From positions 2,812,042-2,876,041 of the forward strand of contig OY282354.1 in assembly GCA_958295485.1 (NCBI GenBank): 64,000 bases of DNA. Reading direction: 5' to 3'. The translations under genes and the position numbers were made by a program. Shown piece after piece: positions 2,565-23,022 of this stretch. The stretch's first letter is position 1. Each line of letters begins with the position of its first letter. Source of the stretch: an uncultured Gammaproteobacteria bacterium (GTDB lineage: Bacteria; Pseudomonadota; Gammaproteobacteria; Eutrophobiales; Eutrophobiaceae). Below the pieces are notes generated by a model. That model saw only the letters and a program-made list of their open reading frames with translations, had not been told where the DNA came from and did no database searches.

Positions 2565-2632
2565 TTTGCCAGGCGCGAGACAGGCATGATTTTCAAACAA
2601 ATTCCGGGTTCCCACAGCGAACGTCGCTGACG

Positions 2633-4267: not shown

Positions 4268-4369
4268 ATGCGACGATAATCCGCAAGGGCGGGCCCCTAC
4301 GGGATTTAATGTCTCCTGCCCGTCTGAACCTGAACACCCCTTTTGCAGGAATTCCCGCTGCCAGGCAAA

Positions 4370-5674: not shown

Positions 5675-5709
5675 AGCAGTTACCCCTGTCTCCTATCACG
5701 CATTTCTTG

Positions 5710-6705
5710 TCATACCTTGTAATAATCTTTATACCAGTCGATGAATTTCTTTATGCCCTGTTGAAGTGAAACGCGTGTTTCAAATTTGAAATCTTTCAGC
5801 AACCTGGATGAGTCAGACAGGGTGTTGATAACGTCGCCCGGTTGTGCCCCCACAAATTGAATGGCAGCCTCCCTGCCGATTTCAGCCTCGAGAATTTTAA
5901 TGTAACCCATGAGATTCACCGCGTTTTGATTACCGATGTTATAAATCCTGTGTCTTGCCGGGCCGCTTGCAGGCTCAGGCCTGGTTGCATCCCTGGCCGG
6001 AATCTTATCCGTTATTCTTACCGTAGCCTCAACCGCGTCATCAATATAGGTAAAATCCCTTTGGTGCTTGCCCTGGTTGAAAACCCGGAGCGGTTCGCCG
6101 GCGTATATTTTTTTAGTGAAAAGCATGAGTGACATGTCCGGCCTGCCCCAGGGACCGTATACGGTAAAGTACCGCAGGGCGGTCATCGGTATGCCAAACA
6201 GGTGACTGTAGCTGTGCGCCATTAATTCATTTGCGCGTTTCGTGGCCCCATAGAGTGAAACCGGATGTGAAGCCGGGTCTGATTCTGAAAAAGGCATTTT
6301 CTCATTTGCGCCGTAAACCGAACTTGATGAGGCATACACCAGGTGTTCCACGCCTGTTGCGCGACAACCTTCCAGGATATTAAAAAAACCCGCGATGTTT
6401 GAATTAATACAGGTATGGGGGTGAGTAATCGAGTATCGGACACCGGCTTGCGCGGCCAGGTGGACTACGCGTTCAGGGTTAATCTCCTTGAACAGGTTTT
6501 CCACCTGGTTTGCATTCGTAATATCCAGTTTTTTGAAACTGAATTTTTCAAAGCCTGAAATGGCAGCCAACCGGTCCTGTTTGAGCTTGACGTCATAGTA
6601 GTCATTCAAATTATCGACCCCGATTATTTCATCTCCTCTCTCCAATAATAGTTTGGCCAATGCCGCGCCGATAAACCCGGCGCAACCGGTAACAAGAATC
6701 TTCAT
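5710..6705 (-). CDS. NAD-dependent nucleotide-sugar epimerase, UDP-glucuronate 4-epimerase-like
   Basis: MKILVTGCAGFIGAALAKLL Rossmann start and YASSSSVYG...YGATK catalytic motif of the extended SDR family (GalE/Cap1J/LpsL type). Adjacent to ugd. Confidence 0.8.
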   Translation of the reverse strand: MKILVTGCAGFIGAALAKLLLERGDEIIGVDNLNDYYDVKLKQDRLAAISGFEKFSFKKLDITNANQVENLFKEINPERVVHLAAQAGVRYSITHPHTCINSNIAGFFNILEGCRATGVEHLVYASSSSVYGANEKMPFSESDPASHPVSLYGATKRANELMAHSYSHLFGIPMTALRYFTVYGPWGRPDMSLMLFTKKIYAGEPLRVFNQGKHQRDFTYIDDAVEATVRITDKIPARDATRPEPASGPARHRIYNIGNQNAVNLMGYIKILEAEIGREAAIQFVGAQPGDVINTLSDSSRLLKDFKFETRVSLQQGIKKFIDWYKDYYKV

Positions 6706-6924: not shown

Positions 6925-8709
6925 CTAATGTGAATTCCTGGGCGTCCCATGGCGCTCAATAATCCGAACATATTCCTCATCTAACTCTAAACATGCTCCC
7001 CTGTCCAGCTGCCCTACTGTCTTTCGATAGAGCTCCTGCCAGGGTGTCGCATTCTCAAGCGCCTCTTTCTTCAATTTCGCTTTGCGGAGTTCCAATTCAG
7101 CAGATTCCACCAGCAGGTTTACACTGTTCGATACCAAGTCAATTTCCAGCATATCGCCATTCTCGAGTACAGCCAGACCGCCACCTGCGGCGGCCTCTGG
7201 AGACACGTTAAGGATCGACGGGCTTGCCGAAGTCCCGCTCTGACGTCCGTCGCCCATACAGGGCAGTTCGCGGATTCCCTGTTTAACCAGTATGGCGGGC
7301 GGCAACATATTGACCACCTCCGCAGAGCCAGGATAGCCCACCGGCCCACAGTTGCGGATAACCAGAATGCAGTGCTGATCAATATCCAATGAAGGATCAT
7401 CTATACGCTGGTGATAGTCTTCCGGCCCCTCAAAAATGACCGCTCTTGCCTGGAAACAATTTGGGTGTTGCGAATGGCTCAGATATTTTTCTCGGAACTC
7501 AGCGCTGATCCCGGACTTTTTCATTAGTGCGGAATCGAACAGGTTTCCGGACATAACGGCAAAGCCAGCGTTTTCCATCAAGGGAGCCGACACTGGTTTA
7601 ATCACTTTGTTATTGCCAGGGAAGCAGCCCGTTATGTTCTCGGCCAGTGTTTTGCCGGTTACGGTCAGGGTGTCACCTTCAATCAACCCTGCAGCAATCA
7701 GTTGGTTTAGAACAGCGGGCATGCCGCCGGCTCGGTAAAAGTCTTCGCCCAGGAATTCCCCTGTGGGCTGGCAGTTCACGATGAGAGGGATATGTTCTCC
7801 ATAGTTTTGCCAATCCGTGATATTTAAATCCTGTAATCCGAGCTGTTTGGCCATAGCCAGCCAATGCACAGGCGCATTGGACGACCCGCCGATGGCGCTG
7901 GTCACCACAATGGCATTATGGAATGCATCGGAGGTCATGATACGGCTGGGGCGAAGATCCTCATGTACCAGTGCAACGCTGCGAAAGCCGGTCTCATAGG
8001 CCATCTGCGCCCGCGCCTGGTAAGTTGCGGGAATCGCAGCACAGCCCGGCAACGACATGCCCAGCGCCTCAGCCATGCAGTTCATGGTCAGGGCAGTACC
8101 CATGGTATTGCAATGACCGACACTGGGACTGGAGTCGCGAACGTTGCGCATAAAGCCTTGATGATCGATTTCCCCGGCGGCGTATTGCTCGCGTGAACGC
8201 CAGATCACCGTACCGGAACCGATTCGCTCATCACCTTGCCAGCCGTTGTTCATGGGGCCGCCGGATAGCACGATAGCGGGGAGGTCAACAGCAGCAGCGG
8301 CCATCAAAGTGGCTGGTGTGGTTTTATCGCAGCCGGTAGTAAGCACCACACCATCAAGCGGATAGCCGTGCAGTATTTCCACCAATCCTAAAAATGCCAG
8401 ATTGCGATCCAGGGCGGCAGTGGGACGGCGACCCTGTTCATGAACAGGATGCACCGGAAACTCCAATGGAATACCGCCTGCGTCACGAATCCCGTCACGC
8501 ACCCGTTTTGCCAGTTCCAGGTGATGACGATTACAGGGCGCCAGATCGCTACCGGTCTGGGCGATGCCAATAATGGGTTTGCCGGACTGTAATTCCCCCG
8601 GGGTCAGGCCGTAGTTAAAATATCGCTCGACATAGAGCGCCGTCTGATCCGGCTGCCCGGGATTGTTAAACCAGTCTTCGCTACGAAGTCTTTTCTTACG
8701 TGAAGCCAT
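6925..8709 (-). CDS. IlvD/EDD-family sugar-acid dehydratase (L-arabinonate/D-xylonate/galactonate dehydratase type)
   Basis: 594 aa. N-terminal RSEDWF...PIIGIAQTGSDLAPCNRHH...TTGCDKTTPA...SGGPMNNGW blocks closely match recalled L-arabinonate dehydratase (AraC/XylD) sequences, including the Fe-S cluster cysteines. Confidence 0.85.
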   Translation of the reverse strand: MASRKKRLRSEDWFNNPGQPDQTALYVERYFNYGLTPGELQSGKPIIGIAQTGSDLAPCNRHHLELAKRVRDGIRDAGGIPLEFPVHPVHEQGRRPTAALDRNLAFLGLVEILHGYPLDGVVLTTGCDKTTPATLMAAAAVDLPAIVLSGGPMNNGWQGDERIGSGTVIWRSREQYAAGEIDHQGFMRNVRDSSPSVGHCNTMGTALTMNCMAEALGMSLPGCAAIPATYQARAQMAYETGFRSVALVHEDLRPSRIMTSDAFHNAIVVTSAIGGSSNAPVHWLAMAKQLGLQDLNITDWQNYGEHIPLIVNCQPTGEFLGEDFYRAGGMPAVLNQLIAAGLIEGDTLTVTGKTLAENITGCFPGNNKVIKPVSAPLMENAGFAVMSGNLFDSALMKKSGISAEFREKYLSHSQHPNCFQARAVIFEGPEDYHQRIDDPSLDIDQHCILVIRNCGPVGYPGSAEVVNMLPPAILVKQGIRELPCMGDGRQSGTSASPSILNVSPEAAAGGGLAVLENGDMLEIDLVSNSVNLLVESAELELRKAKLKKEALENATPWQELYRKTVGQLDRGACLELDEEYVRIIERHGTPRNSH

Positions 8710-8712
8710 GCA

Positions 8713-9606
8713 TCAGCTCTGTGAATTATCCAACCAGGACGCGGGAAAGCGCATATCCGGTATACCCTGAGTATTGGTTTTCAACGCGAATAGCGAACCG
8801 GCCAGAGGCTGCGCCTCTAATTCAGCGTCACTAAGGCCTTTTCTCGCGGTGGTAATGTACAAAGTGCGCAGATCGGAACCACCGAAACAGCAACTGGTGA
8901 CATTGGCTACCGGCATATCGACTACTTGATCCAGTGCGCCTCCAGGCGTATAGCGATGCAACCCCCATCCCGCAAACAACGCCACCCAAATATAACCCTG
9001 TTGATCGACAGTCATACCGTCGGGATATCCGAAATCTTCAGGAATAACAATGAAGGGGCGTTTGTTGGCAATCCCCCCTGCTTCATCAAGGTCAAAAGCG
9101 TAAATTGTCCTGTCCAGGGTTTCCGTGTGGTAAAGGATTTTTCCGTCCGAGCTCAGGGCTGGCCCATTGGTGATACCATAGCCCCTGTCCATGGCAACGA
9201 GTCCGCGATCGTCAAACCGGTAGAGCGTGCCGCAACGGGCGCTCTCCTTGTCATCCATGGTGCCAACCCAATATCGCCCGGATCGATCGAGCTTGCCGTC
9301 GTTGAAACGGTTGTTTTCGGGCTCTTGTTCAGGCCGATTCAGGAGTTTTATCCGGCTGATATCCAGGTCCAGCCTACCCAGTCCGTTTCTATGAGTGCAG
9401 AGATAACCGGCATCGCTACAAGGTACGATGCTGGTTACTTGCTCGGGGAAATACCAGCTTTCTTTCCGATCCATATCGGGTGAAAAACGATACACAAACT
9501 GTTGCTTGATATCGACAAAGAGCAGTTCCGCCTGGTCTTCAATCCAGACTGGCCCTTCACCAAGTTCGCAACCGCTCTGCCAGACGGCTTCTAGAAATCC
9601 ACCCAC
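8713..9606 (-). CDS. SMP-30/gluconolactonase/LRE-family sugar lactonase
   Basis: GEGPVWIEDQAELLFVDI, NDGKLDRSGRYWVGTM and GITNGPALS blocks of the six-bladed beta-propeller lactonases. Confidence 0.8.
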   Translation of the reverse strand: MGGFLEAVWQSGCELGEGPVWIEDQAELLFVDIKQQFVYRFSPDMDRKESWYFPEQVTSIVPCSDAGYLCTHRNGLGRLDLDISRIKLLNRPEQEPENNRFNDGKLDRSGRYWVGTMDDKESARCGTLYRFDDRGLVAMDRGYGITNGPALSSDGKILYHTETLDRTIYAFDLDEAGGIANKRPFIVIPEDFGYPDGMTVDQQGYIWVALFAGWGLHRYTPGGALDQVVDMPVANVTSCCFGGSDLRTLYITTARKGLSDAELEAQPLAGSLFALKTNTQGIPDMRFPASWLDNSQS

Positions 9607-10748
9607 TGACCGTCTGCTGCGGAAGATTTCAACACATTATCGATAAAACGTATGCCTTCCAATCCGTCTTCGACAGTGGGGACAAGCAGGCTACTCTGAT
9701 CCGGTTTACGGTTTTCAATATTAGCCCGAATTTGCTCGGCTGCATCCAGATAGATCTGTGCAAAACCTTCCAGGTAGCCCTCTGGATGGCCGGGAGGTGT
9801 ACGGGTTGCATGGGCAGCGGCCTCACCGGTACCCGCTCCGCCCCTGGTGATGATCTGAGCAGGTTCCCCCAGAGCGCTCCAATACAGACTATTGGGTTCT
9901 TCCTGCCGCCATTCCAGGCCTCCCTTTTCGCCATAAACCCGTATTTTCAGGGCATTAGCATTACCCGGCGCAACCTGGCTGGCCCAGATAGCGCCGCGCG
10001 CGCCATTGCTGTAGCGCAGCATGATTTGCACGTTATCGTCCAGTGCACGACCCTCGACAAAGGTATGCACGTCGGCTGACAATTGCCTTATCTTCAGACC
10101 GGTAATAAAGGCAGCCAGATTAAATGCATGAGTGCCTATATCGCCCAGACAGCCGGCCGGACCTGAGCGCGCCGGATCAGTGCGCCACTCCGCTTGTTTA
10201 ATGCCTTCATTTTCCAGGGGAGTGGAAAGCCAACCCTGAGGGTATTCAGCCTGTACTACGCGGATATTACCGAGCATGCCTTCGGCTACCATGTGCCGCG
10301 CATGTCTGACCAGCGGGTAAGCGGTATAGTTATGCGTCAGTGCAAATACACAGCCGGACTGCCGCACCGCCGTTTCCAGGGCTTCGGCATCGACCAGCGA
10401 TGAAGTCAAGGGCTTGTCGCAGATCACATGGATACCTTGCTCCAGGAAAGCTTTTGCTGCCGGGTAATGCAGATGGTTCGGAGTAACGATCCCTACCACA
10501 TCAATACCGTCTTCGCGCTTTGCCTCTGCCGCGGCCATTTCAGAAAAGTCGTCATAGATGCGGTCCGGGCTGATATTAATATCAGCGCCGGAGGCCTGGT
10601 TGTTTTCCGGGTCAGTTGAGAATACGCCGGCAACGAGCTCATATTGGTCGTCTATGCGTGCGGCAACCCTGTGAACGGCGCCTATAAAAGCCCCGATGCC
10701 GCCACCCACAAACCCAAGTCGTAACCTACGATTTCTTTTAGTCGTCAT
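9591..10748 (-). CDS. Gfo/Idh/MocA-family NAD(P)-dependent oxidoreductase (probable sugar 1-dehydrogenase)
   Basis: [18 protein letters not shown] Rossmann N-terminus and EKPL-type motif (ICDKPLTSS). Confidence 0.8.
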
Positions 10749-10755: not shown

Positions 10756-11814
10756 CTACCGGTCGAGTCCTAACAGCCGCGCATTACCTTTGACATCCGG
10801 GTCGCCATTGGCAAAATCGTCGAAAGCCCGGTCAGCGACATGAATGATATGGTCAGCAATGAATTTGGCGCCTTCCGCAGCGCCGTCGTCGGAATGTTTG
10901 AACACGCATTCCCATTCACAAATCGCCCAACCGTCGTAGTCGTACTTCGCCAACTTCGAGAACACGCTCTTGAAGTCCACCTGTCCGTCTCCGAGCGAGC
11001 GAAAGCGCCCGGCCCGATCTTCCCAGCGCGAATAGCCAGAATACACACCCTGACGGCCATCCGGCACAAATTCCCCATCCTTGGCCACAAACACCTTGAT
11101 ACGATCATGGTAGAGGTCAATGAAATGCAGATAATCCAACTGTTGTAAAACCAGATGACTGGTATCGTAAAGAATATTGCAACGCGGGTGCCCGTCCAGC
11201 AAACCCAGGAAGCGTTCAAAGCTTGCGCCATCAAACAGATCCTCGCCTGGATGGATTTCATAACAGACATCAACGCCCAACTCATCGAACCTGTCCAGTA
11301 TCGGTTTCCAGCGCTTTGCCAGTTCCGCGAATGCCGCTTCCACCAGACCAGCCGGTCGTGGCGGCCAGGGGTAGAGAAAAGGCCAGGCCAGGGCGCCGGA
11401 AAAGGTCGAGTGCCGATCCAGGCCAAGATTGGCGGACGCCTGCGCGGATAGCATAAGCTGTTGAACCGCCCATTCTTGACGGGCCACGTGGTTGCGATGT
11501 ACGCCCGGCGGGGCGAAACCGTCAAACACATCGTCATAGGCCGGATGTACAGCCACAAGCTGTCCCTGCAGATGAGATGTCAGGTCTGTTAATTCCAGAT
11601 TATTCTCAGCCAGTATGCCTTTGATGTCGTCACAGTAGTCTCTATTCTGCGCAGCTTTTTGCAAATCAAAAAACCGCGGATCCCAAGTAGGCAGTTGCAA
11701 ACCCTTGTAGCCCAGAGACGAAGCCCATGCGGCGATATCAGGAAGGTTATTAAAGGGCGGGTTATCCGTGGCAAATTGGGCGATAAAAATAGCCGGGCCT
11801 TTGATGGTTTTCAT
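10756..11814 (-). CDS. xylose-isomerase-like TIM-barrel sugar phosphate isomerase/epimerase
   Basis: 352-aa ORF with the general pattern of AP-endonuclease-2/xylose-isomerase-like barrels. It is the first gene of the minus-strand operon, directly downstream of the operator palindrome. Confidence 0.6.
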   Translation of the reverse strand: MKTIKGPAIFIAQFATDNPPFNNLPDIAAWASSLGYKGLQLPTWDPRFFDLQKAAQNRDYCDDIKGILAENNLELTDLTSHLQGQLVAVHPAYDDVFDGFAPPGVHRNHVARQEWAVQQLMLSAQASANLGLDRHSTFSGALAWPFLYPWPPRPAGLVEAAFAELAKRWKPILDRFDELGVDVCYEIHPGEDLFDGASFERFLGLLDGHPRCNILYDTSHLVLQQLDYLHFIDLYHDRIKVFVAKDGEFVPDGRQGVYSGYSRWEDRAGRFRSLGDGQVDFKSVFSKLAKYDYDGWAICEWECVFKHSDDGAAEGAKFIADHIIHVADRAFDDFANGDPDVKGNARLLGLDR

Positions 11815-11856: not shown

Positions 11857-11872
11857 ATGGTAACGTTACCAT
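11857..11872. promoter_or_regulatory. candidate LacI-family operator, perfect palindrome ATGGTAACGTTACCAT
   Basis: Seen directly in the sequence, 43 bp upstream of the start of the minus-strand dehydratase operon and next to the LacI gene. Has the TGnnAnCGnTnnCA architecture of LacI/GalR/CcpA-type operators. Confidence 0.45.
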
Positions 11873-11923
11873 AGTTTATCGAAATTTCAAAGTGTTCTGA
11901 ACCTGTTAGAGAGCAGCTTAGCT

Positions 11924-12934
11924 CTATCCCCGCAACGGCGCCGTTGAATCCCGAACGACCAGCTTGTGCGAGACAATTTCAAGTGGGTTTGTGATCTGCT
12001 GACCCTGAATCAGACTGCATAGCAGATAGAGTCCGTGCTCGCCGATTTCCTGGGCTGGCTGGGCAATGGTCGTTAAAGGCGGAGTCATCACTTCAGCATA
12101 GCGGGTGTTGTCATAACCCATGATGGAAATATCATCCGGTATCCTAAGGCCGGCAGCCGCTATTTCCGCATAGGCGCCCAAAGCCATTTCATCATTTGTA
12201 CAAAAGATTGCCGTTGGTTTGCCACCCATTTTAAGTATTCGCCGGGTAGCCTTGCGACCACCTTCGATGGAAAGACTGCCGGGCGCCACCCAAGCTTCAT
12301 TCACCTTTAAACCAGCCTCTTTCATGGCTTCGCGAAAACCCATCTCCCGCTCACGCGTCAAAATCGAGCCTTCCTGACCACCGATACAGGCAATCTTTTG
12401 ATGGCCCAATTGCAGCAGGTGTTTCGTCGCATCCTTGCCGGCCGCCAGGTTATCGATCCGCACGGCGGGCAAGGATTCCAATCCAGGTACGACCGCTTCA
12501 CAACAAATAACAATAGGGGGAATTACTCTCGAGTTTTTCAGCGAATCGGAAAATGGAGAGCGTGCGCCCAACAGAATAATGCCGTCGGACTGCTTGGAGA
12601 GAATAAAATTGGTAAGCTCGTCCTTTGCAACCGGGTGGGCATCAGCTTCCTTAATCAGAATCATGTAGCTGAGCTCGCTGGCAACACGGTTGATACCCTC
12701 CATTACATCGGTAAAGAAGGGATCGCCGATGCCAGATACTACTACCACGATAATTCCGGTACTGCCGGTACGGAAATTCCGTGCTATCCGGTTGGGCGCA
12801 AACCCCATTTCCTGAACCACTTCAGCGACCTTACTTCTGGTCGCCGACTTGACGCTGTCCGGATCGTTAAAATATCGCGAAACCGTGGTTACCGATACGC
12901 CTGCCACTTCGGCAACTTCTTTCATTGACGCCAT
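11924..12934 (-). CDS. LacI-family transcriptional regulator
   Basis: N-terminal HTH MASMKEVAEVAGVSVTTVSRYFN and a periplasmic-binding-protein-like sugar-binding core. 336 aa. Confidence 0.9.
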   Translation of the reverse strand: MASMKEVAEVAGVSVTTVSRYFNDPDSVKSATRSKVAEVVQEMGFAPNRIARNFRTGSTGIIVVVVSGIGDPFFTDVMEGINRVASELSYMILIKEADAHPVAKDELTNFILSKQSDGIILLGARSPFSDSLKNSRVIPPIVICCEAVVPGLESLPAVRIDNLAAGKDATKHLLQLGHQKIACIGGQEGSILTREREMGFREAMKEAGLKVNEAWVAPGSLSIEGGRKATRRILKMGGKPTAIFCTNDEMALGAYAEIAAAGLRIPDDISIMGYDNTRYAEVMTPPLTTIAQPAQEIGEHGLYLLCSLIQGQQITNPLEIVSHKLVVRDSTAPLRG

Positions 12935-13079
12935 AAGACAACTTTATCTATCTCCGCATAATTGACCGCATTATACAGCTTGATTTGAAGCCGTCGGGAA
13001 AATCTTTTTCGGATTGCGCTATCAAGCTGTTTGGTCCCGACTGAAAAATGGAACAGCATTCATTTTAACACATCAAAAA

Positions 13080-13095
13080 ATGGTAACGTTTGCAT
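13080..13095. promoter_or_regulatory. degenerate copy of the operator (ATGGTAACGTTTGCAT) plus a TTACCAT half-site at 13117-13123
   Basis: Seen in sequence about 57 bp upstream of the SDR/SDR/mutarotase operon, and divergent from the LacI gene. Confidence 0.3.
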
Positions 13096-13151
13096 TTTTT
13101 TTCATAAACCTGAATAATTACCATCAAATAAACCGAAACAACCCTGACTGA

Positions 13152-13892
13152 ATGGCCGCAAGACTTAAAAACAAAACCATCCTGGTAACGGGTTCTGCCC
13201 AAGGTATTGGGCTGGCCAGCGCCCAGGCGTTTTTGGCTGAAGGCGCCAAGGTGATTGCTACGGATATTAATCTTGGACCGTTAAAAAACTCTGGATTAAG
13301 TGGTAACGCCGAGATCATCCCACTGGACGTGACAGATGCTCAGGCGATTAAGCAACTTGCTATACAGAATCCCGAGGTTTCCGTTTTGATGAATTGCGCT
13401 GGCACGGTGTGCAACGGCGCCGTTTTGGACTGCACCATCGAAGATATGAAGAAAAGCTTTGCGCTGAACGTATTTTCCATCTATAGCACGATACAAGCCT
13501 TCCTCCCCGCTATGCTGGAACGCGCTCAGGGATCAATAATCAATATCGCCTCGGTGGTATCCACTGTTACAACAGCAACTAACCGCTTTGCCTACAGCGC
13601 CAGCAAAGGCGCGGTCATTGCCCTGACTCGTTCCGTTGCGCGCGATTACATTGAATCAGGTGTGCGCTGTAACGCTATCAGCCCGGGAACAGTATATACA
13701 CCTTCCCTGGAGGAGCGTATTTCCGCAACGGATAACCCGGACGCCACCCGCAAAATGTTTATTGACAGGCAGCCCATGAAACGGCTTGGCCGAGCGGAAG
13801 AGATTGCGTCCGCGGCCGTTTATCTGGCCTCTGATGAATCGGCCTTTACCAGCGGAGAGAACCTGGTGATCGACGGCGGTTTCAGCCTGTAA
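13152..13892 (+). CDS. SDR-family oxidoreductase
   Basis: TILVTGSAQGIGLASAQAF Rossmann motif and YSASKGAV catalytic YxxxK. Confidence 0.85.
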   Translation: MAARLKNKTILVTGSAQGIGLASAQAFLAEGAKVIATDINLGPLKNSGLSGNAEIIPLDVTDAQAIKQLAIQNPEVSVLMNCAGTVCNGAVLDCTIEDMKKSFALNVFSIYSTIQAFLPAMLERAQGSIINIASVVSTVTTATNRFAYSASKGAVIALTRSVARDYIESGVRCNAISPGTVYTPSLEERISATDNPDATRKMFIDRQPMKRLGRAEEIASAAVYLASDESAFTSGENLVIDGGFSL

Positions 13893-13911
13893 CCACAAGA
13901 AGAGGGTTTGA

Positions 13912-14718
13912 ATGAACAGACAAACTAACAAAGCGGAAGACAAACTCGCCATTGTCACAGGCGGCGGCGCGGGAATAGGCGTCGATATTGTTCTAAGTCT
14001 CGCCAAACAGGGCTGGGACACAGTGATTAACTATTGGCATTCCGCCGAGCAAGCGAACCAGGTGGCAGAAAAAGCAACGGATTTCGGAGTTCAGGCGTTA
14101 TGCGTGCAGGCCGATGTAGGTAATGCTCAGGATATCGGCAACCTGTTTGATCTGTGCATACAACATTTTGGCAAAACCCCAAACCTGCTGGTAAACAATG
14201 CAGCTGTGCAAACTTGGTCCAGCTTTCTGGATCTTGCCGAGGAAGACTGGGCCAGCACCATCCAAACCAACCTGACCGGCTGCTTCCTCACCTCACAAAA
14301 ATTTGCCAGAAATCTGGTCCGGGATGGTAAAAAAGGAGCGATTGTCAACATTGGCTCAGGCTGTAATAAGTTGGCTTTCCCCAACCTGGTTGACTACACC
14401 GCATCCAAAGGCGGTTTGGAGATGCTGACAAAATCTGTTGCCGTTGAACTGGCCCCCCACGGGATAAGGGTCAATTGCGTGGCGCCGGGTGCGATAGAAA
14501 CCGGGCGCACACAAGCCGAAGCCGATGGTTATGCGGAGATTTGGGGCGATTTCACCCCGATGGGAAGGGTGGGAACACCCGATGATGTCGCCAAGGCAGT
14601 ACTCTTTTTTGCAAACCAGGACTCCGACTATATAACAGGCCAAACACTGTGGGTGGACGGCGGTGTATTTACCAAGGCAAACTGGCCCTATCAAAATGAT
14701 CCGCCTGGAAAAAATTGA
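13912..14718 (+). CDS. SDR-family oxidoreductase
   Basis: LAIVTGGGAGIG Rossmann motif, NNAAV and YTASKGGL catalytic motif. Confidence 0.85.
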   Translation: MNRQTNKAEDKLAIVTGGGAGIGVDIVLSLAKQGWDTVINYWHSAEQANQVAEKATDFGVQALCVQADVGNAQDIGNLFDLCIQHFGKTPNLLVNNAAVQTWSSFLDLAEEDWASTIQTNLTGCFLTSQKFARNLVRDGKKGAIVNIGSGCNKLAFPNLVDYTASKGGLEMLTKSVAVELAPHGIRVNCVAPGAIETGRTQAEADGYAEIWGDFTPMGRVGTPDDVAKAVLFFANQDSDYITGQTLWVDGGVFTKANWPYQNDPPGKN

Positions 14719-15760
14719 TCAACAAAGGATTTCCTCCGGCGAAAAGGTCGGTCTGTACAGGCTATCGAACAGCCAGGGGGTGGAAATTGAGATAATCGAA
14801 CTCGGCGGTGCGATAAGATCGCTTAAAACACCCGACTGGCGGGGCGACCAGGGAGACATTGTCCTCGGTTACCAAGGCGCCCAGGACTATCTGCTTGACG
14901 ACTGCTATATGGGAACCCTGATTGGTCGCTATGCGAATCGCATCGCCGGGGGCCGATTCAGACTGGGTAACAAATCCTACCAATTAACTACCAATGAAGG
15001 CGGCAATCATCTGCACGGGGGTAGAGTCGGTTTCAATAAGCGCCTGTGGCAGGCATCCGAATACCAGGATTCGACCGGGCCGACGCTAAAATTGACCCTG
15101 CGCAGCCCTGATGGCGAAGAAGGTTTTCCCGGCACTCTGGATATCTCGGTGGTCTATTCGCTATCGGAAAACAATCGATTCAATATTTTCTACGAAGCCA
15201 CCACGGATGCCGACACCATCCTTAACCTTACTCAGCATAGCTATTTTAATCTCTCCGCCGGGCAGGTGGATACCATTCTTGAGCATGAGCTGCAGATTCA
15301 GGCATCACACTACTTGCCAATCACCGAAAATCTCATCCCTGACGGTAAATTTGAAAACGTTTCCAGATCACCCCTTAATTTTTTAACTTCGAAACCTATA
15401 GGAAAAGATATTCATTCCACACACCCGCAAATTAATCTGGCCAAAGGTTACGATCACACGCTGGCGCTTGATCCTGGCCACCAGTCTTTCCACAAAGCAA
15501 CGGTTAATGAACCCGTATCCCGACGCCAAATGTTACTTTATACAGATCGACCCGGAGTTCAGCTCTACACGGGAAACTCATTAATAAAACCTTTAAAAAC
15601 AAAGGTAAAATCGGATTTAAACTTTATAAAATGGGGCGCCTTTTGTCTGGAGGCGCAGTCTTTTCCGGATGCTCCCAATCACCCCCTGTTTCCCTCTGCA
15701 AATTTATCCGCAGGCGGGATATACCGCACCGCCAGTAGCTATGAATTTCAATGTATCTAG
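14696..15760 (+). CDS. aldose 1-epimerase (galactose mutarotase family)
   Basis: MIRLEK... N-terminus, with NEGGNHLHGG and FCLEAQSFPDAPNHP blocks typical of mutarotases. Start chosen at the internal Met of ORF 14663..15760, overlapping the upstream SDR stop by 23 bp. Confidence 0.75.
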   Translation: MIRLEKIDQQRISSGEKVGLYRLSNSQGVEIEIIELGGAIRSLKTPDWRGDQGDIVLGYQGAQDYLLDDCYMGTLIGRYANRIAGGRFRLGNKSYQLTTNEGGNHLHGGRVGFNKRLWQASEYQDSTGPTLKLTLRSPDGEEGFPGTLDISVVYSLSENNRFNIFYEATTDADTILNLTQHSYFNLSAGQVDTILEHELQIQASHYLPITENLIPDGKFENVSRSPLNFLTSKPIGKDIHSTHPQINLAKGYDHTLALDPGHQSFHKATVNEPVSRRQMLLYTDRPGVQLYTGNSLIKPLKTKVKSDLNFIKWGAFCLEAQSFPDAPNHPLFPSANLSAGGIYRTASSYEFQCI

Positions 15761-15846
15761 ATCCAATGAGCTCGTCGCGGGAATACTGTCATCTCGCAAA
15801 TATCAATGAACTATTCCGGGTTAAATGTTGTTTTTTGTTTTTAATT

Positions 15847-15862
15847 ATGGTAACGTTACCAT
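15847..15862. promoter_or_regulatory. candidate LacI-family operator ATGGTAACGTTACCAT (copy in duplication unit 1)
   Basis: Perfect 16-bp palindrome identical to the site at 11857. Confidence 0.45.
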
Positions 15863-15955
15863 AATGAATGAATATAAAGCGTAAAACAGTTTTCACATTT
15901 ACTAATACCTGCAAACAACCTGCACAAATACATTACAAAAAGGGGGATTTCCACC

Positions 15956-16090
15956 ATGTTAAATAAAAGCAATCCGTTTGGCTGGCTTAATCCGGCGTTT
16001 TACATAGCCCCACTTATCATATTTGCCGCATCTCCGGCAGTTTTTAATGAGCTCGTTACAAGAATACTGTCATCTCGCAAATATAAATGA
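15956..16090 (+). pseudogene. 44-codon orphan ORF: duplicated signal-peptide start of the TonB-dependent receptor (MLNKSNPFGWLNPAFYIAPLIIFAASPAVF) fused to 14 out-of-context codons
   Basis: Created by the tandem duplication. Has its own AAGGGGG Shine-Dalgarno sequence and the same first 30 residues as the receptor at 16238. Confidence 0.5.
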
Positions 16091-16127
16091 ACTATTCCGG
16101 GCTGAATGTTGTTTTTTGTTTTTCATA

Positions 16128-16143
16128 ATGGTAACGTTACCAT
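16128..16143. promoter_or_regulatory. candidate LacI-family operator ATGGTAACGTTACCAT (copy in duplication unit 2, proximal to the receptor gene)
   Basis: Perfect 16-bp palindrome 95 bp upstream of the receptor start codon. Confidence 0.45.
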
Positions 16144-16237
16144 TATGAATGAATATAAAGCGTAAAACAGTTTTCACATTTACTAATTACCTGCAAACAA
16201 CCTACACAAATGCATTACAAAAAGGGGGATTCCCACC

Positions 16238-18757
16238 ATGTTAAATAAAAGCAATCCGTTTAGCTGGATTAATCCGGCGTTTTACATAGCCCCACTTATC
16301 ATATTTGCCTCATCTCCGGCAGTTTTTATCGCTACCGCAACGATCAGCCCTTCCGTGCTTGCACAGGATGGCGCGTTGGAAGAAGTCGTAGTAAGCGCCC
16401 GTAGAAGGGAAGAAAACCTGCAGGATGTTCCGGATACGGTGGTAGCCTTCACGGCGGAAACCATAGAGCGCGCTAATATCGAGATGGTCAGGGATATAAC
16501 CGCTGCTATTCCAAACGTCTCTATTGAGGAATCTCTAAGCCCGAACTCGACGTTCATTGGAGTACGCGGAATCGTTTCCACCCGGAACGGCGAACCGGCG
16601 GTAGCCATGGTCGTGGATGGTGTGCAAATAGGTAGCGCCGCGGAAGTGTCCCAAGCGTTCAGTGACGTTGAACAAATTGAATTACTAAAAGGTCCTCAGG
16701 GCGCCTTATATGGACGTAACGCCATCGGCGGCGCCTTATTGGTTACCACCAAAAAACCCTCCCAGGAATCCGCGGCTAACTTCACCGCAGGCATTGGTGG
16801 CAACGGGTGGGTCGAGGCTTCAGGGTCCGTCAGCGGTCCGATAAGCGACAACCTGTTTTTCAGGGTTTCAGGAAACTTCAAGGACTTCGACGGCACTATT
16901 GAAAACGAATACCTGGCGGGCTTGCTCGACAACAATGTCGTAATACCCGGCTTCCAGAATGACCTCGATAGTGACGAAACCTACGTAGACTTTGAGAATA
17001 ACAAGGATTGGCGCGCACGGTTGCTTTGGGAGGCATCAGAAAATACCGAAGTTGATTTCAGATACTCCCACAATGAGCTTGAAGCAGGCTCCTTCTGGTA
17101 TCGACCATTGTTTCGACTCGAAACTCCGGGGGTTCTCTATGATTTCCCCATCGGTAACGATGTAAACACTGCCGCCATCAGGGAGCTTGATAATTTTACC
17201 GTCAAAATCGACCATCAGGCATCTTTCGCCACCATTACCTCGATTACCTCCTATACCAGTACCGAGGAGCGTTATGGCGTCGCTTTTGAGGGCCGTGGTT
17301 CGTTTCAAATCGGCGATGTGGATTTCATAAACGACCAGTTCGTCGCCGAATTCGGCACCACGCGCTTCCCCAACGCTTCTCAAGCAGATATTGACCTTCT
17401 GAATGCACAGTTTGGCCAGGACGTGGGTAGTGACCAATTTTACGACATCGAAAACTGGTCACAGGAAATACGTTTTACATCTCCGGATGAAGGGCGTTTC
17501 CGTTGGGTGGCAGGCGCCTACGCTTTATGGACCGATCGCAAAGATACTATCCGCGCGGATTACTATAACAATCAGGGGTTGCCGCTTGACGGTACCTTGA
17601 ATACCTCACCCGATGCGCAGGGGTTGGATGGCGCGCTTCCCAATGCACTTTTGTTTGAAACATCCAATGACCAGGACAATTTCGCCTGGGCCCTTTTCTT
17701 TAATGCTGACTACGATCTGACGGACAGACTAACCTTAACCGGTGCACTTCGCTACGATCGGGATGGCCGGGAACTTACCCGGATTTCCGGACCGACAGTT
17801 GATGACGGTGGCGCCACTGGAGCGCTGCTCCAGACCTGTGTCGCCGATGGCGGCGTGACCTGCACCGCGTCCGGCACGGTAGAAGATGCGACCTTTTCCG
17901 CCTTCCAGCCCAAATTCTCACTCGCCTACGCCTGGTCTGACGACGTCACCCTGTATGGTACTTACGCACGGGGCTTCCGCAGTGGAGGTTTTAACGGAAC
18001 TAACGCGCTGCTGACAGAAACCTACGACAAGGAAATCCTGGACAGTTACGAGCTTGGCTTCAAGTCAACCCTGGTGGGAGGCACGCTACGACTCAATGGC
18101 GCCTTTTTCTACCAGGATTGGGAAAACTCACAAGTATTTGAGTTTGACGGCCAAGTGTTCGTACAAAGCCTGTACAACATACCCGAGAGTGAGGTTTACG
18201 GCGGTGAGCTAAGCTTTGACTGGGCCGCTACCGATAATCTGACTGTAAGTGGTGGCTTCGGCATCATGGAATCCGAGATCAAGGAATTTAATCCGGATAT
18301 TCGCGACAGGCTGCAAGCTGAAATCAATGCCAGATTTAGCAACACCGTTGCCCTGACCCCGGATGTACAAGCCGAATTCGATAGCAATTTTGAAGGCAAC
18401 AAGCTGGTAAAATTCCCACACCAAACGGCTAACCTCTCGCTGGTACACGAACTTCCCCTGAATAGCTTTGGAGGAAGCGATTTAATCACCCGCATTGACT
18501 ACAACGTACGCTCCAAACGGTTCTGGTGGATCGATAATATCAACGAAGAGGACACCGAACAGTTCGTTAATGTCAGTGTTTCCCTGGGCTTTGGCGACAA
18601 CTGGGAATTGCAGGGCTGGTGTAAAAACTGTTTAGACAACCAATCATTATCTGCATATGAACCGGCCGAGATGGTTCTGTTCGGTGGGGCTGCATTAGAC
18701 GTCGCCTACGAGGCAAGGCGCAGAACCTATGGAATAAAAGTGAACTATAGTTTCTAA
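16238..18757 (+). CDS. TonB-dependent outer-membrane receptor
   Basis: Long signal peptide and an EEVVVSARRREENLQDVPDTV TonB-box/plug region. 839 aa with a C-terminal ...YGIKVNYSF ending in Phe. Confidence 0.9.
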   Translation: MLNKSNPFSWINPAFYIAPLIIFASSPAVFIATATISPSVLAQDGALEEVVVSARRREENLQDVPDTVVAFTAETIERANIEMVRDITAAIPNVSIEESLSPNSTFIGVRGIVSTRNGEPAVAMVVDGVQIGSAAEVSQAFSDVEQIELLKGPQGALYGRNAIGGALLVTTKKPSQESAANFTAGIGGNGWVEASGSVSGPISDNLFFRVSGNFKDFDGTIENEYLAGLLDNNVVIPGFQNDLDSDETYVDFENNKDWRARLLWEASENTEVDFRYSHNELEAGSFWYRPLFRLETPGVLYDFPIGNDVNTAAIRELDNFTVKIDHQASFATITSITSYTSTEERYGVAFEGRGSFQIGDVDFINDQFVAEFGTTRFPNASQADIDLLNAQFGQDVGSDQFYDIENWSQEIRFTSPDEGRFRWVAGAYALWTDRKDTIRADYYNNQGLPLDGTLNTSPDAQGLDGALPNALLFETSNDQDNFAWALFFNADYDLTDRLTLTGALRYDRDGRELTRISGPTVDDGGATGALLQTCVADGGVTCTASGTVEDATFSAFQPKFSLAYAWSDDVTLYGTYARGFRSGGFNGTNALLTETYDKEILDSYELGFKSTLVGGTLRLNGAFFYQDWENSQVFEFDGQVFVQSLYNIPESEVYGGELSFDWAATDNLTVSGGFGIMESEIKEFNPDIRDRLQAEINARFSNTVALTPDVQAEFDSNFEGNKLVKFPHQTANLSLVHELPLNSFGGSDLITRIDYNVRSKRFWWIDNINEEDTEQFVNVSVSLGFGDNWELQGWCKNCLDNQSLSAYEPAEMVLFGGAALDVAYEARRRTYGIKVNYSF

Positions 18758-22725: not shown

Positions 22726-22741
22726 ATGGTGATACTACCAT
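22726..22741. promoter_or_regulatory. operator-like imperfect palindrome ATGGTGATACTACCAT (same ATGGT/ACCAT arms, different centre)
   Basis: Seen 23 bp upstream of the first gene of the minus-strand isomerase/enolase/hydroxyacid-DH/VOC operon. Confidence 0.2.
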
Positions 22742-22855: not shown

Positions 22856-22931
22856 TGGCGTCCCCTAGGGGATTCGAACCCCTGTCGCCGCCGTGAAAGG
22901 GCGGTGTCCTAGGCCTCTAGACGAAGGGGAC
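22856..22931 (-). tRNA. tRNA-Glu (anticodon UUC)
   Basis: The reverse complement reads GTCCCCTTCGTCTAGAGGCCTAGGACACCGCCCTTTCACGGCGGCGACAGGGGTTCGAATCCCCTAGGGGACGCCA. It is near-identical to E. coli tRNA-Glu, is 76 nt long and has an encoded CCA. Confidence 0.9.
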
Positions 22932-22946
22932 AGGTAGGGAAAATCC

Positions 22947-23022
<76 letters not shown>

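What the first reader, a model, noticed from the sequence alone, without database searches (positions are those of the whole stretch)
11857..16143. Perfect 16-bp palindrome ATGGTAACGTTACCAT recurs at the promoters of the sugar-oxidation operons and the TonB receptor: probable operator of the adjacent LacI regulator
- **Seen directly:** identical copies sit at 11857, 15847 and 16128. A degenerate copy sits at 13080, and a TTACCAT half-site at 13117. All lie in intergenic regions immediately upstream of operon starts, and one is directly between the LacI gene and the dehydratase operon.
- **Established:** LacI/GalR/CcpA operators are about 16-bp palindromes with a central CG of this form.
- **Inference:** a single LacI regulon covers three units. 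These are a Gfo/Idh/MocA dehydrogenase-lactonase-IlvD/EDD dehydratase-isomerase operon, an SDR/SDR/mutarotase operon, and the outer-membrane receptor. This would be a complete import-plus-oxidative-catabolism system for one sugar.
Basis: partly seen in the sequence, partly recalled or inferred. Interest (0 to 1): 0.5.

Follow-up and report, generated by a model that had tools for sequence, protein, structure and literature searches.

The report
Sugar-repressor binding sites, one duplicated
A 16-base palindrome repeated in front of neighbouring sugar-use genes is very probably the docking site of the repressor gene beside it, an ordinary bacterial on/off switch. Two of its three perfect copies come from one duplication, and the gene set is a patchwork rather than one complete pathway.

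Summary
ATGGTAACGTTACCAT is exact at 11857, 15847 and 16128, and has 2 mismatches at 13080. All four copies are intergenic and lie within 4.3 kb of the only LacI-family gene in the 64-kb window. No shuffle reached this count.

Sites 15847 and 16128 are not independent. They sit in a 281-bp tandem duplication of the receptor promoter plus its first 30 codons.

Comparative evidence supports the operator reading:
- The nearest LacI homologues carry CG-centred palindromes at the same two positions around their gene.
- The window's palindrome differs from theirs only at the two half-site positions read by recognition-helix residues 15 and 16, where the protein also differs (Ala16 to Thr).
- In relatives, the site is kept at the same -50.5 position although the flanks cannot be aligned.
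- Across other bacteria, the exact 16-mer sits beside LacI-family genes in 22 of 118 sampled loci.

The claim of a complete one-sugar pathway is not supported. The regulon is a mosaic:
- One module is the receptor, a 2-hydroxy-3-keto-glucal-hydratase homologue and a Gfo oxidoreductase.
- The other is a xylose-type oxidative module.
- No inner-membrane transporter or final cleavage enzymes are present.

Verdict: an ordinary new member of a known kind.

The parts
11857..11872 (.). O1: perfect palindrome ATGGTAACGTTACCAT. It lies between the LacI stop (11924) and the start of the hydratase-Gfo-lactonase-dehydratase operon (ATG 11814), with its centre at -50.5.
   Evidence: The same position (-50.5) holds GTGGTA[A/G]CGTTACCAT in relatives L202-L205, whose flanks cannot be aligned. 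Sigma-70-like candidates overlap or abut it.
13080..13095 (.). O2: degenerate site ATGGTAACGTTTGCAT (2 mismatches) in the divergent LacI / SDR1 region. Its centre is -64.5 from SDR1 and -153.5 from the LacI ATG. The right half resembles the TGTAAAC half-site of the homologues.
   Evidence: Homologues carry their palindrome 84-215 nt upstream of their LacI gene. It overlaps the candidate -35 TTGCAT.
15847..15862 (.). O3: perfect palindrome in the upstream copy of the duplicated receptor promoter.
16128..16143 (.). O4: perfect palindrome, centre -102.5 from the TonB-receptor ATG. It is the core of a perfect 28-bp palindrome at 16122-16149.
   Evidence: (I9).
15765..16328 (+). Tandem duplication (2 x 281/282 bp, 93-96% identical) of the receptor promoter, operator and first 30 codons. 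Copy 1 ends in a 44-codon remnant ORF at 15956-16090.
11924..12934 (-). LacI-family regulator (336 aa; the database copy starts at Met4). Its recognition helix is V13-S-V15-T16-T-V-S-R20, with A51, F54 and R55 in the hinge region. It has no C-terminal tetramerisation extension. It is the only LacI-family gene in the window.
10756..11814 (-). Xylose-isomerase-like TIM barrel. It is a full-length homologue (537 bits, about 69% identity) of PDB 8ro4, '2-hydroxy-3-keto-glucal hydratase'.
9591..10748 (-). Gfo/Idh/MocA oxidoreductase. It is the conserved partner of the hydratase homologue.
8713..9606 (-). SMP-30/gluconolactonase-family lactonase. Its best solved relative is PDB 7plb (an Smp-30/Cgr1-family protein), which from my memory is the Caulobacter xylonolactonase.
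6925..8709 (-). IlvD/EDD sugar-acid dehydratase. Its best solved relatives are 7m3k ('galactonate dehydratase') and 5oyn (an IlvD/Edd-family dehydratase), which from my memory is the Caulobacter xylonate dehydratase. It is 68% identical to the dehydratase of the Microbulbifer Weimberg-type cluster.
13152..13892 (+). SDR1. Its best solved relative is L-2-keto-3-deoxyfuconate 4-dehydrogenase (8xwk, 8y11, 8y4j), which also binds D-2-keto-3-deoxypentonate.
13912..14718 (+). SDR2, similar to glucose-1-dehydrogenase. It is 55% identical to the SDR that lies divergent from the LacI homologue in Microbulbifer thermotolerans. It is a candidate aldose 1-dehydrogenase.
14663..15760 (+). Aldose 1-epimerase (mutarotase). 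The likely start is the ATG at 14696.
   Evidence: GalM lies divergent from the LacI homologue in 7 metagenome loci.
16238..18757 (+). TonB-dependent outer-membrane receptor (839 aa).
   Evidence: Its 81%-identical orthologue lies divergent from the hydratase-Gfo pair in L202-L205.
22726..22741 (.). Possible fifth site, degenerate at the centre: ATGGTgatacTACCAT. The outer arms are intact and the central CG is lost. Its centre is -30.5 from the start (22703) of a minus-strand operon encoding a ketose-epimerase-like TIM barrel, an enolase-superfamily dehydratase, a 2-hydroxyacid dehydrogenase and a glyoxalase-fold protein.
   Evidence: (ATGGT-N6-ACCAT gives 4 hits against 0.06 expected). This is tentative.

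Best explanation
**What it is.** The palindrome is the operator of the adjacent LacI-family repressor (11924-12934).

**How it works.** A repressor dimer binds each site. The recognition helices read the outer ATGGT / ACCAT arms and the hinge helices insert at the central CG. Binding occludes promoters that overlap the sites. A sugar effector bound to the C-terminal domain releases the repressor.

**Units controlled:**
1. hydratase homologue, Gfo oxidoreductase, lactonase and IlvD/EDD dehydratase (O1);
2. SDR1, SDR2 and mutarotase, probably together with the repressor's own divergent gene (O2, the weakest site);
3. the TonB-dependent receptor, through two tandem promoter-operator copies (O3, O4);
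4. possibly, and weakly, the neighbouring epimerase-like / enolase-type dehydratase operon (site at 22726).

**Composition.** The regulon is a mosaic of two modules:
- A xylose-type oxidative module: aldose dehydrogenase, mutarotase, XylC-like lactonase, XylD-like dehydratase and a 2-keto-3-deoxy-acid 4-dehydrogenase. This is the kind of set that the regulator's nearest homologues control.
- A receptor + 2-hydroxy-3-keto-glycal hydratase + Gfo oxidoreductase trio of the non-hydrolytic glycoside route.

**Effector.** It is probably D-xylose or a related aldose or oligosaccharide (my estimate about 0.4 for xylose itself).

**Shown here:** the sites, their statistics and geometry; the gene identities; the comparative pattern.

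**Inferred:** binding by this protein, repression, the effector, and the operon boundaries.
For: 1. **Statistics and clustering.** All four hits lie within 4.3 kb around the only LacI-family gene in 64 kb. All 6 occurrences of TGGTAACG in the window fall in that stretch. No other CG-centred palindrome lies in the three flanking intergenic regions.

2. **Form and position fit the family.** LacI-family sites are typically even palindromes with a central CG, and over 75% lie -140 to -30 from start codons. 72% of LacI-family regulators are autoregulated. The window's sites are at -50.5, -64.5 and -102.5.

3. **Same layout in homologues.** In the Microbulbifer thermotolerans locus, ATGTAAACGTTTACA lies both in the SDR/LacI divergent region and just after the LacI gene, before the next operon. 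About 20 metagenome loci with 45-54%-identical regulators carry ATGTAAACGTTTACAT or a one-base variant of it beside the gene.

4. **Coupled change of protein and site.**
   - The homologues have Ile/Val15-Ala16 and (NT-5, NT-4) = TA, as the published code predicts.
   - The window has Val15-Thr16, and its site differs from theirs only at NT-5/NT-4 (GT).
   - These are the positions that covary with residues 15 and 16.
   - G at NT-6 is paired with Arg20, and Ala51 is kept.

5. **Independent Val-Thr example.** A Paenibacillus regulator with the same VSVTTVSR helix sits in an operon headed by the exact 16-mer. Regulators with Val15-Ser16 are catalogued with TGGTAACGTTACCA.

6. **Phylogenetic footprint.** In relatives L202-L205 the hydratase is 87%, Gfo 81% and the receptor 81% identical. 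blastn homology stops at the start codon, yet GTGGTA[A/G]CGTTACCAT sits at -50.5 exactly as O1 does.

7. **The sequence is a LacI-type operator in general.** Of 118 sampled loci with the exact 16-mer, 26 hold a LacI-family gene, and in 22 of these the gene is within 320 nt of the palindrome.

8. **Promoter overlap.** The best sigma-70-like candidates overlap each site.

9. **Xylose link.**
   - Homologues sit beside xylA/xylB or Weimberg-type genes.
   - The lactonase and dehydratase best match PDB 7plb and 5oyn, which I recall are the Caulobacter XylC and XylD.
   - The Xanthomonas xyl-box is TGGTAGCGCTAACA, and the TGGTAGC half occurs in the relatives' site.
Against: - The published code lists Val15-Thr16 with (NT-5, NT-4) = AA (9 sites), not GT. 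GT is listed for Val-Ser, and as a minor variant for Pro-Met, Thr-Met, Ala-Ile and Ile-Asn. The pairing here therefore rests on one independent example.
- Relatives L202-L205 keep good sites but have no LacI gene in 21 kb. No protein more than 55% identical to this LacI exists in the 5.8-billion-protein search. Either the sites there are relics or another regulator reads them.
- The autoregulatory site O2 is the poorest.
- Promoter calls are weak consensus matches, and the palindrome itself contains TAnnnT hexamers.
- The whole source genome could not be scanned, so the regulon's size and the absence of scattered copies are known only for 64 kb.
- No binding or expression data exist.
Confidence: 0.72

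Rival explanations
1. The palindrome is a genuine LacI-type operator, but its binder is a different LacI-family regulator encoded elsewhere in the 3.57-Mb genome, for example one with Pro-Ile, Pro-Met or Val-Ser at helix positions 15 and 16. The adjacent LacI would recognise something else, or only the hybrid site O2.
For: - The recognition code lists Val-Thr with AA, whereas GT goes with Val-Ser and is a minor variant for Pro-Met. Pro-Ile regulators carry TGGTAGCGCTACCA in that paper's binding-site data.
- Most regulators found next to the exact 16-mer elsewhere are Pro-Ile.
- Relatives L202-L205 keep the sites without this LacI nearby, and no orthologue was found anywhere.
- A TGAAAACGTTTCCA sequence of the Val-Thr to AA type exists at 15352, although inside the mutarotase gene.
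Against: - The sites flank this LacI gene on both sides, in the layout seen for its homologues.
- No alternative palindrome lies in its flanking intergenic regions.
- The Ala16-to-Thr change coincides with a change at exactly NT-5/NT-4.
- The Paenibacillus Val-Thr regulator sits behind the identical 16-mer.
- In the relatives the receptor-side site evolves at least as fast as its flanks: 4 of 16 positions differ and the central CG is lost in L204. That fits relic sites after loss of the regulator.
Confidence: 0.17
2. The palindromes act as nucleic-acid structures (an RNA hairpin in the 5' leader, a processing or attenuation signal, or a cruciform), or are copies of a generic repeat element, rather than protein-binding sites.
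For: The receptor copies are embedded in longer palindromes. O4 is a perfect 28-mer that folds at -15.8 kcal/mol (z = -5.2), and O3 folds at -11.1 kcal/mol.
Against: - O1 and O2 do not fold better than shuffles (z = -1.0 and -0.2). Only the 16-bp DNA palindrome is common to all four.
- No T-run terminator follows the sites.
- There is no Rfam match.
- There are no copies in the other 60 kb.
- The flanks share nothing beyond the palindrome, apart from the duplication.
- The exact 16-mer lies beside LacI-family genes in many other bacteria.
Confidence: 0.04

Closest known systems
XylR (LacI family) / xyl-box regulon of Xanthomonas campestris (Dejean et al. 2013, as cited in PMC7748154)
   Same: - A LacI-family repressor.
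- A 14-bp core palindrome of the same type: TGGTAGCGCTAACA against TGGTAACGTTACCA here. The TGGTAGC half is present in the relatives' site.
- Control of a TonB-dependent receptor together with xylose-related catabolic genes.
   Different: - 3 of 14 core positions differ.
- The targets here are oxidative-route enzymes plus a 3-keto-glycal hydratase homologue, not xylA/xylB or xylanases.
- Orthology to the Xanthomonas protein was not tested.
- The inducer is unknown.
Caulobacter crescentus XylR and the PxylX operator controlling xylXABCD (Stephens et al. 2007, as cited in PMC7198004)
   Same: - A LacI-type repressor with a 14-bp operator inside the promoter.
- It controls an oxidative pathway. 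The lactonase and dehydratase here best match PDB 7plb (249 bits) and 5oyn (772 bits), which from my memory are the Caulobacter XylC and XylD.
   Different: - No XylX (FAH family) or XylA (aldehyde dehydrogenase) lies behind the sites here.
- An L-KDF-4-dehydrogenase-like SDR is present instead.
- The operator sequence was not compared directly.
LacI homologues of Cellvibrionales-like marine bacteria (Microbulbifer, Agaribacterium and metagenome loci L122-L141) with operator ATGTAAACGTTTACAT
   Same: - 45-54% protein identity.
- The same site layout around the gene.
- Neighbouring SDR, mutarotase, lactonase and IlvD/EDD dehydratase genes, or xylAB.
   Different: - The operator differs at NT-5/NT-4 (TA against GT).
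- The regulator differs at residue 16 (Ala against Thr).
- None of them has the receptor or the hydratase-Gfo pair behind the same operator, except that L126 has the pair about 3 kb away.
Non-hydrolytic glycoside utilisation loci (3-keto-glycoside route; PDB 8ro4 hydratase; Nasseri et al. preprint 10.1101/2024.03.25.586180)
   Same: - The first gene of the O1 operon is about 69% identical to the 8ro4 hydratase and is paired with a Gfo/Idh/MocA oxidoreductase.
- In other loci the pair sits with a GMC oxidoreductase, a gluconate-2-dehydrogenase-subunit-3 protein and further TIM barrels, under a LacI with operator ATGTAACCGGTTACAT.
   Different: - No 3-keto-glycoside lyase or glycoside 3-dehydrogenase is recognisable behind the sites here.
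- The pair is fused into an operon with a lactonase and a sugar-acid dehydratase.

Membership tests
LacI/GalR-family repressor-operator system | The regulator has an N-terminal LacI-type helix-turn-helix and a periplasmic-binding-protein-like effector domain. | tested here: met
   PF00356 covers residues 3-48, with Peripla_BP_1/3/4 after it; the best NCBIfam match is CytR-like, 320 bits, below the equivalog cut-off.
LacI/GalR-family repressor-operator system | The operator is an even palindrome of 16-22 bp with a central CG. | tested here: met
   One search gives the 16-bp perfect palindrome with central CG. The criterion comes from Ravcheev 2014.
LacI/GalR-family repressor-operator system | Sites lie about -140 to -30 from the start codons of target genes, and one lies near the regulator's own gene. 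| tested here: met
   sites at -50.5, -64.5 and -102.5. O2 is -153.5 from the LacI start and shares the divergent region.
LacI/GalR-family repressor-operator system | The DNA-contact residues are consistent with the site: Arg20 with G at NT-6, Ala51 and a hydrophobic residue 54 with the central CG, and residues 15/16 with NT-5/NT-4. | tested here: inconclusive
   - Arg20/G6, Ala51 and Phe54 fit.
- Val15-Thr16 with GT is not the catalogued pair. The catalogue gives Val-Thr with AA and Val-Ser with GT.
- One independent Val-Thr/GT case exists, in Paenibacillus.
LacI/GalR-family repressor-operator system | The site is conserved at orthologous promoters while the flanks diverge. | tested here: met
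   the site is at -50.5 of the hydratase gene in L202-L205. blastn homology ends at the ATG.
LacI/GalR-family repressor-operator system | The protein binds the site, and a small-molecule effector releases it. | not testable with these tools
   This needs EMSA or footprinting and expression assays.
LacI-type XylR / xyl-box xylose regulon | The regulator is orthologous to characterised XylR proteins of Xanthomonas or Caulobacter. | not tested
The support is indirect: the 45-54% homologues sit beside xylAB or Weimberg-type genes.
LacI-type XylR / xyl-box xylose regulon | The operator matches the xyl-box TGGTAGCGCTAACA. | tested here: inconclusive
   11 of 14 positions match. The relatives' site has the TGGTAGC half.
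LacI-type XylR / xyl-box xylose regulon | The targets are xylose or xylan utilisation genes, including a TonB-dependent receptor. | tested here: inconclusive
   - XylC-like and XylD-like enzymes and a receptor are present.
- The best dehydratase hit is named galactonate dehydratase.
- SDR1 resembles an L-fucose-route enzyme.
- There is no xylA/xylB and no XylX/XylA.
LacI-type XylR / xyl-box xylose regulon | Xylose or xylo-oligosaccharides act as the inducer. | not testable with these tools
   This needs an expression or binding assay with sugars.

The most novel reading that the evidence does not exclude
A xylose-type LacI repressor changed its DNA specificity: Ala16 became Thr, and the operator half-site changed from TGTAAAC to TGGTAAC. 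O2 would be a surviving hybrid intermediate. With the new operator the repressor captured a foreign module, the TonB-dependent receptor with a 2-hydroxy-3-keto-glycal hydratase and a Gfo oxidoreductase.

The result would be a hybrid pathway. Imported glycosides are cleaved by the non-hydrolytic 3-keto route, and the released aldose is burnt through the lactone, sugar acid and 2-keto-3-deoxy-acid 4-dehydrogenase route. The receptor promoter-operator was then duplicated in tandem to raise inducible uptake. Sister lineages that lost the repressor show the operators decaying.
Probability: 0.2. Interest if true: 0.5.

Novelty: new member of a known kind. Interest (0 to 1): 0.3.

Why it matters
It gives a testable regulon assignment in a poorly sampled marine-type gammaproteobacterium. 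The assignment is one repressor, four or five operators, and a receptor plus enzymes whose substrate can be found by testing a handful of sugars.

Three modest wider points follow:
- It adds a natural example of coupled change between LacI residue 16 and operator positions NT-5/NT-4. The pairing (Val-Thr with GT) is not in the published recognition code.
- It links a homologue of the recently named 2-hydroxy-3-keto-glucal hydratase to a TonB-dependent receptor and to sugar-acid enzymes. That hints at a combined route.
- It shows a promoter-operator tandem duplication.

None of this changes how LacI-family regulation is understood.

Tried and rejected
- **Whole-collection scan for the exact 16-mer.** The hits were used instead to measure adjacency to LacI-family genes.
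- **Exact look-ups of the window's LacI and receptor and cluster members.** They gave no record name, so the organism is unidentified. The best homologues are marine Gammaproteobacteria.
- **Close orthologues of the LacI for fine footprinting.** None exists above 55% identity. I used the hydratase gene's 87% relatives instead.
- **Published recognition code as a direct test.** It confirms the homologues (Ile/Val-Ala with TA) but does not list Val-Thr with GT. I recorded this as inconclusive, not as support.
- **RNA-structure and Rfam explanations.** Rejected.
- **Chance.** Rejected.
- **Receptor orthologues at 54-62% identity (L206-L208).** They belong to other regulons: a different LacI with TGAAACGTTTCA-like sites, or a FecR/ECF sigma pair. 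They give no footprint for this site.
- **Selective constraint on the sites among the four relatives.** None was detectable.
- **DNA looping between O3 and O4 by a tetramer.** This is unlikely. The 336-aa protein ends where dimeric family members end, which is an inference from length only.

Full report
**1. The observation**

A search for ATGGTAACGTTACCAT with up to 3 mismatches gives four hits in the 64-kb window:
- exact at 11857, 15847 and 16128;
- ATGGTAACGTTTGCAT at 13080.

The expected count is 0.25, and no shuffle of 100 reached four. The TTACCAT half-site is real but starts at 13118.

- Minus strand:
  - LacI-family regulator, 11924-12934;
  - xylose-isomerase-like TIM barrel, 10756-11814;
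  - Gfo/Idh/MocA oxidoreductase, 9591-10748;
  - SMP-30-type lactonase, 8713-9606;
  - IlvD/EDD dehydratase, 6925-8709.
- Plus strand:
  - two SDRs, 13152-13892 and 13912-14718;
  - aldose 1-epimerase, about 14696-15760;
  - TonB-dependent receptor, 16238-18757.

Every site is intergenic.
- O1 lies between the LacI stop and the TIM-barrel gene, at -50.5.
- O2 lies in the divergent LacI/SDR1 region, -64.5 from SDR1 and -153.5 from LacI.
- O4 lies -102.5 from the receptor start.

**2. A correction: two copies are one**

Positions 15765-16046 and 16046-16328 are a head-to-tail duplication of 281/282 bp with 93-96% identity. It copies the receptor's upstream region, the palindrome and the first 30 codons. 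The upstream copy now ends in a 44-codon remnant ORF at 15956-16090.

O3 and O4 therefore share one origin. The independent evidence is two perfect sites plus one degenerate site. That is still far beyond chance for a 16-mer.

With about 6% divergence between the copies, an unchanged 16-mer is not in itself evidence of selection. By my estimate it has roughly a 0.4 chance of surviving unchanged.

Around O4 the symmetry extends to a perfect 28-bp palindrome at 16122-16149 (I9).

**3. Is it a protein-binding site or something else?**

- Only the receptor copies fold into a strong hairpin as RNA: -15.8 and -11.1 kcal/mol. O1 and O2 fold no better than shuffles.
- No Rfam family matches.
- No copy lies in the other 60 kb.
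- All six TGGTAACG octamers of the window fall within 11858-16129.
- The three intergenic regions around the LacI gene contain no other CG-centred palindrome.
- The window holds only one LacI-family gene.
- The form fits the family: an even palindrome with a central CG. So does the position, since more than 75% of LacI-family sites lie -140 to -30 from the start codon and 72% of these regulators are autoregulated (Ravcheev et al. 2014).
- The best sigma-70-like candidates overlap each site: -10 or +1 at O1, -35 at O2, -10 at O3 and O4. These are weak consensus matches, and the palindrome itself contains TAnnnT hexamers.

**4. Comparative evidence that the adjacent LacI is the binder**

*Homologues.* The protein has no relative above 55% identity among 5.8 billion proteins. 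The nearest, at 45-54%, are in Microbulbifer, Agaribacterium, Marinimicrobium, Halioglobus and metagenomes.
- In M. thermotolerans the homologue sits in the cluster SDR <-> LacI - MFS - lactonase - FAH - aldehyde dehydrogenase - IlvD/EDD, a Weimberg-type xylose cluster.
- There, ATGTAAACGTTTACA occurs once in the divergent region and once just after the LacI gene. This is the same layout as O2 and O1.
- About 20 further loci carry ATGTAAACGTTTACAT or a one-base variant of it beside the gene.
- More distant clades, at 35-40% identity, carry ATGTAACCGGTTACAT or ATGTAATCGATTACAT.

*Coupled change.* Numbering from the centre, the window's half-site ATGGTAAC differs from ATGTAAAC only at NT-5 and NT-4 (GT against TA).
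- Camas et al. 2010 showed that exactly these positions covary with recognition-helix residues 15 and 16, with residue 16 the stronger determinant.
- The homologues have Ile/Val15-Ala16, and their TA fits the published table.
- The window's protein has Val15-Thr16.
- Protein and site have therefore changed together.

*Caveat on the code.* That table lists Val-Thr with AA (9 sites). It lists GT with Val-Ser, whose catalogued sites include the exact core TGGTAACGTTACCA.

*One independent case.* A Paenibacillus regulator with the identical VSVTTVSR helix is encoded in an operon of binding protein, permease, unknown, LacI and PfkB kinase. That operon is headed, about 80 nt upstream, by the exact 16-mer.

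**5. Footprint in related genomes**

The TIM-barrel protein has close relatives on four long, transposase-rich contigs of one ENA assembly.
- There the receptor (81% identical) lies divergent from the TIM-barrel gene (87%) and Gfo (81%).
- The dehydratase survives only as fragments.
- LacI, the lactonase, both SDRs and the mutarotase are absent.
- blastn homology to the window stops at the TIM-barrel start codon. Even so, GTGGTAGCGTTACCAT (GTGGTAACGTTACCAT in L204) sits with its centre at -50.5, exactly as O1 does.
- A second, poorer site (TTAGTAACGCTACCAT) lies nearer the receptor. In L204 it reads TTGGTAAGGTTACTAT and has lost the central CG.

This supports co-control of the receptor and the first operon in the common ancestor.

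Among the four relatives the sites change no more slowly than their flanks. That fits relics left after loss of the regulator, but it also leaves room for a regulator encoded elsewhere. That is the main rival explanation, to which I give 0.17.

**6. The 16-mer elsewhere**

A scan of species-representative genomes stopped at 118 loci and did not reach the source genome.
- In 26 of the 118 loci a LacI-family gene lies in the same stretch of up to 8 kb.
- In 22 of them it is within 320 nt of the palindrome.
- These regulators are mostly from Chloroflexota and have a Pro-Ile recognition helix.

By my rough estimate, a random position would lie that close to a LacI-family gene well under 1% of the time. 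The sequence is thus a generic, strong LacI-type operator that several lineages reached independently.

**7. What the regulon encodes**

- The lactonase best matches PDB 7plb (249 bits). The dehydratase matches 7m3k, 'galactonate dehydratase' (829 bits), and 5oyn (773 bits), well ahead of arabinonate dehydratases. From my memory, 7plb and 5oyn are the Caulobacter xylonolactonase and xylonate dehydratase.
- The dehydratase is 68% identical to the Microbulbifer one, and SDR2 is 55% identical to the SDR lying divergent from that LacI.
- SDR1 best matches L-2-keto-3-deoxyfuconate 4-dehydrogenase, which also binds D-2-keto-3-deoxypentonate.
- The first gene of the O1 operon is not a simple isomerase. 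It aligns end to end, at about 69% identity and 537 bits, with PDB 8ro4, '2-hydroxy-3-keto-glucal hydratase'.
- Its Gfo partner is conserved with it in about 35 other loci. In the two loci annotated (L126, L144) the pair lies beside a GMC oxidoreductase, a gluconate-2-dehydrogenase-subunit-3 protein and further TIM barrels. That is the enzyme set of the non-hydrolytic 3-keto-glycoside route (preprint 10.1101/2024.03.25.586180).

The regulon is therefore a mosaic of two modules:
- an oxidative aldose module of the kind the regulator's homologues control;
- a receptor + hydratase + Gfo trio.

No inner-membrane transporter, aldolase, FAH-type enzyme or semialdehyde dehydrogenase follows any site. 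'Complete' and 'one sugar' are not supported.

D-xylose or xylo-oligosaccharide is the most likely effector, for three reasons:
- the homologues neighbour xylAB;
- the enzymes are XylC-like and XylD-like;
- the Xanthomonas xyl-box TGGTAGCGCTAACA is similar.

Galactose, arabinose, fucose and glycosides cannot be excluded.

**8. A possible fifth site**

ATGGTgatacTACCAT at 22726-22741 keeps both outer arms but not the centre. The pattern ATGGT-N6-ACCAT occurs four times against 0.06 expected.

Its centre lies 30.5 nt before the start of a minus-strand operon. That operon encodes:
- a ketose-epimerase-like TIM barrel;
- an enolase-superfamily sugar-acid dehydratase;
- a 2-hydroxyacid dehydrogenase;
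- a glyoxalase-fold protein.

Without the CG it may be a weak or decayed site.

**9. Mechanism, novelty, verdict**

The most likely mechanism is classical. A dimeric LacI-family repressor occupies operators that overlap the promoters of three, perhaps four, units and of its own gene. A sugar releases it. I put this at 0.72.

The tandem duplication gives the receptor two repressible promoters in series. Its effect on expression is an inference.

The 336-aa protein lacks a tetramerisation tail, judged from length only, so looping between O3 and O4 is unlikely.

This is a new member of a well-known kind. The mildly interesting points are:
- the coupled shift in protein and operator specificity;
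- the mosaic gene content;
- the duplicated operator;
- the decaying sites in relatives that lack the repressor.

I score interest at 0.3.

Noticed in passing
window 15765-16328: A 281/282-bp tandem duplication (93-96% identical) of the TonB-receptor promoter, operator and first 30 codons. The upstream copy ends in a 44-codon remnant ORF at 15956-16090.
   Followed up: yes
window 16122-16149 and 15841-15868: Around O4 the symmetry extends to a perfect 28-bp palindrome, TTCATAATGGTAACGTTACCATTATGAA. O3 and O4 differ at the two symmetric positions just outside the 16-mer (T...A against A...T), a change that preserves the symmetry. The reason for the long arms is unexplained. Possibilities are an extended contact, a second factor or a leader hairpin.
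   Followed up: partly
window 22726-22741: ATGGTgatacTACCAT has the outer arms of the operator intact and the central CG lost. It lies 30.5 nt upstream of a neighbouring operon: a ketose-epimerase-like TIM barrel, an enolase-type dehydratase, a 2-hydroxyacid dehydrogenase and a glyoxalase-fold protein (22703 down to 18948).
   Followed up: partly
L202-L205 (ENA ERZ22155170 contigs, 438-691 kb): The nearest relatives of this locus are rich in transposases and carry pseudogenes. The receptor is split in 2 of 4 contigs. The IlvD/EDD dehydratase is reduced to fragments in three of the four contigs. LacI, the lactonase, the SDRs and the mutarotase are gone. This looks like genome decay, as in a host-restricted lineage.
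   Followed up: partly
window 15352-15365: TGAAAACGTTTCCA, a CG-centred near-palindrome, lies inside the mutarotase gene. Its left half is the type that the published code assigns to Val15-Thr16 regulators. It is probably chance, since fewer than 1% of LacI sites are in coding DNA.
   Followed up: no
L004-L121 (for example L017, L083, L091, L099): The identical 16-mer lies directly beside LacI-family genes with a Pro-Ile recognition helix in many Chloroflexota (Anaerolineae) genomes. This is convergent use of the same operator.
   Followed up: partly
L144-L198 (about 30 metagenome loci): There is a conserved arrangement: a LacI with operator ATGTAACCGGTTACAT lies divergent from the Gfo and hydratase-homologue pair. 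In L144 the pair is followed by a nucleoside-symporter-like MFS transporter, a further TIM barrel, a GMC oxidoreductase and a gluconate-2-dehydrogenase-subunit-3 protein. This is a widespread candidate 3-keto-glycoside locus.
   Followed up: partly
window 26998-28779: Genes for F420-0:gamma-glutamyl ligase and 2-phospho-L-lactate transferase (CofE and CofD). From my own knowledge, these are unusual in a gammaproteobacterium-like genome.
   Followed up: no
window 5-6705: A polysaccharide-biosynthesis cluster borders the regulon. It includes a family-4 glycosyltransferase, a fused sulfotransferase / capsule-synthesis protein (900-2564), a UDP-glucose dehydrogenase and an NAD-dependent epimerase. 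It is not preceded by the palindrome.
   Followed up: no
window 22856-23022 and 34647-37460: tRNA-Glu and tRNA-Ala lie between the sugar cluster and gltX. Further on is a 937-aa protein with RTX repeats and a serralysin-type C-terminal domain.
   Followed up: no
window 11932-11945 and 13411-13424: The exact 14-mer GCAACGGCGCCGTT occurs twice, in the 3' end of the LacI gene and inside SDR1. Each copy contains the palindrome AACGGCGCCGTT. No meaning was found.
   Followed up: no
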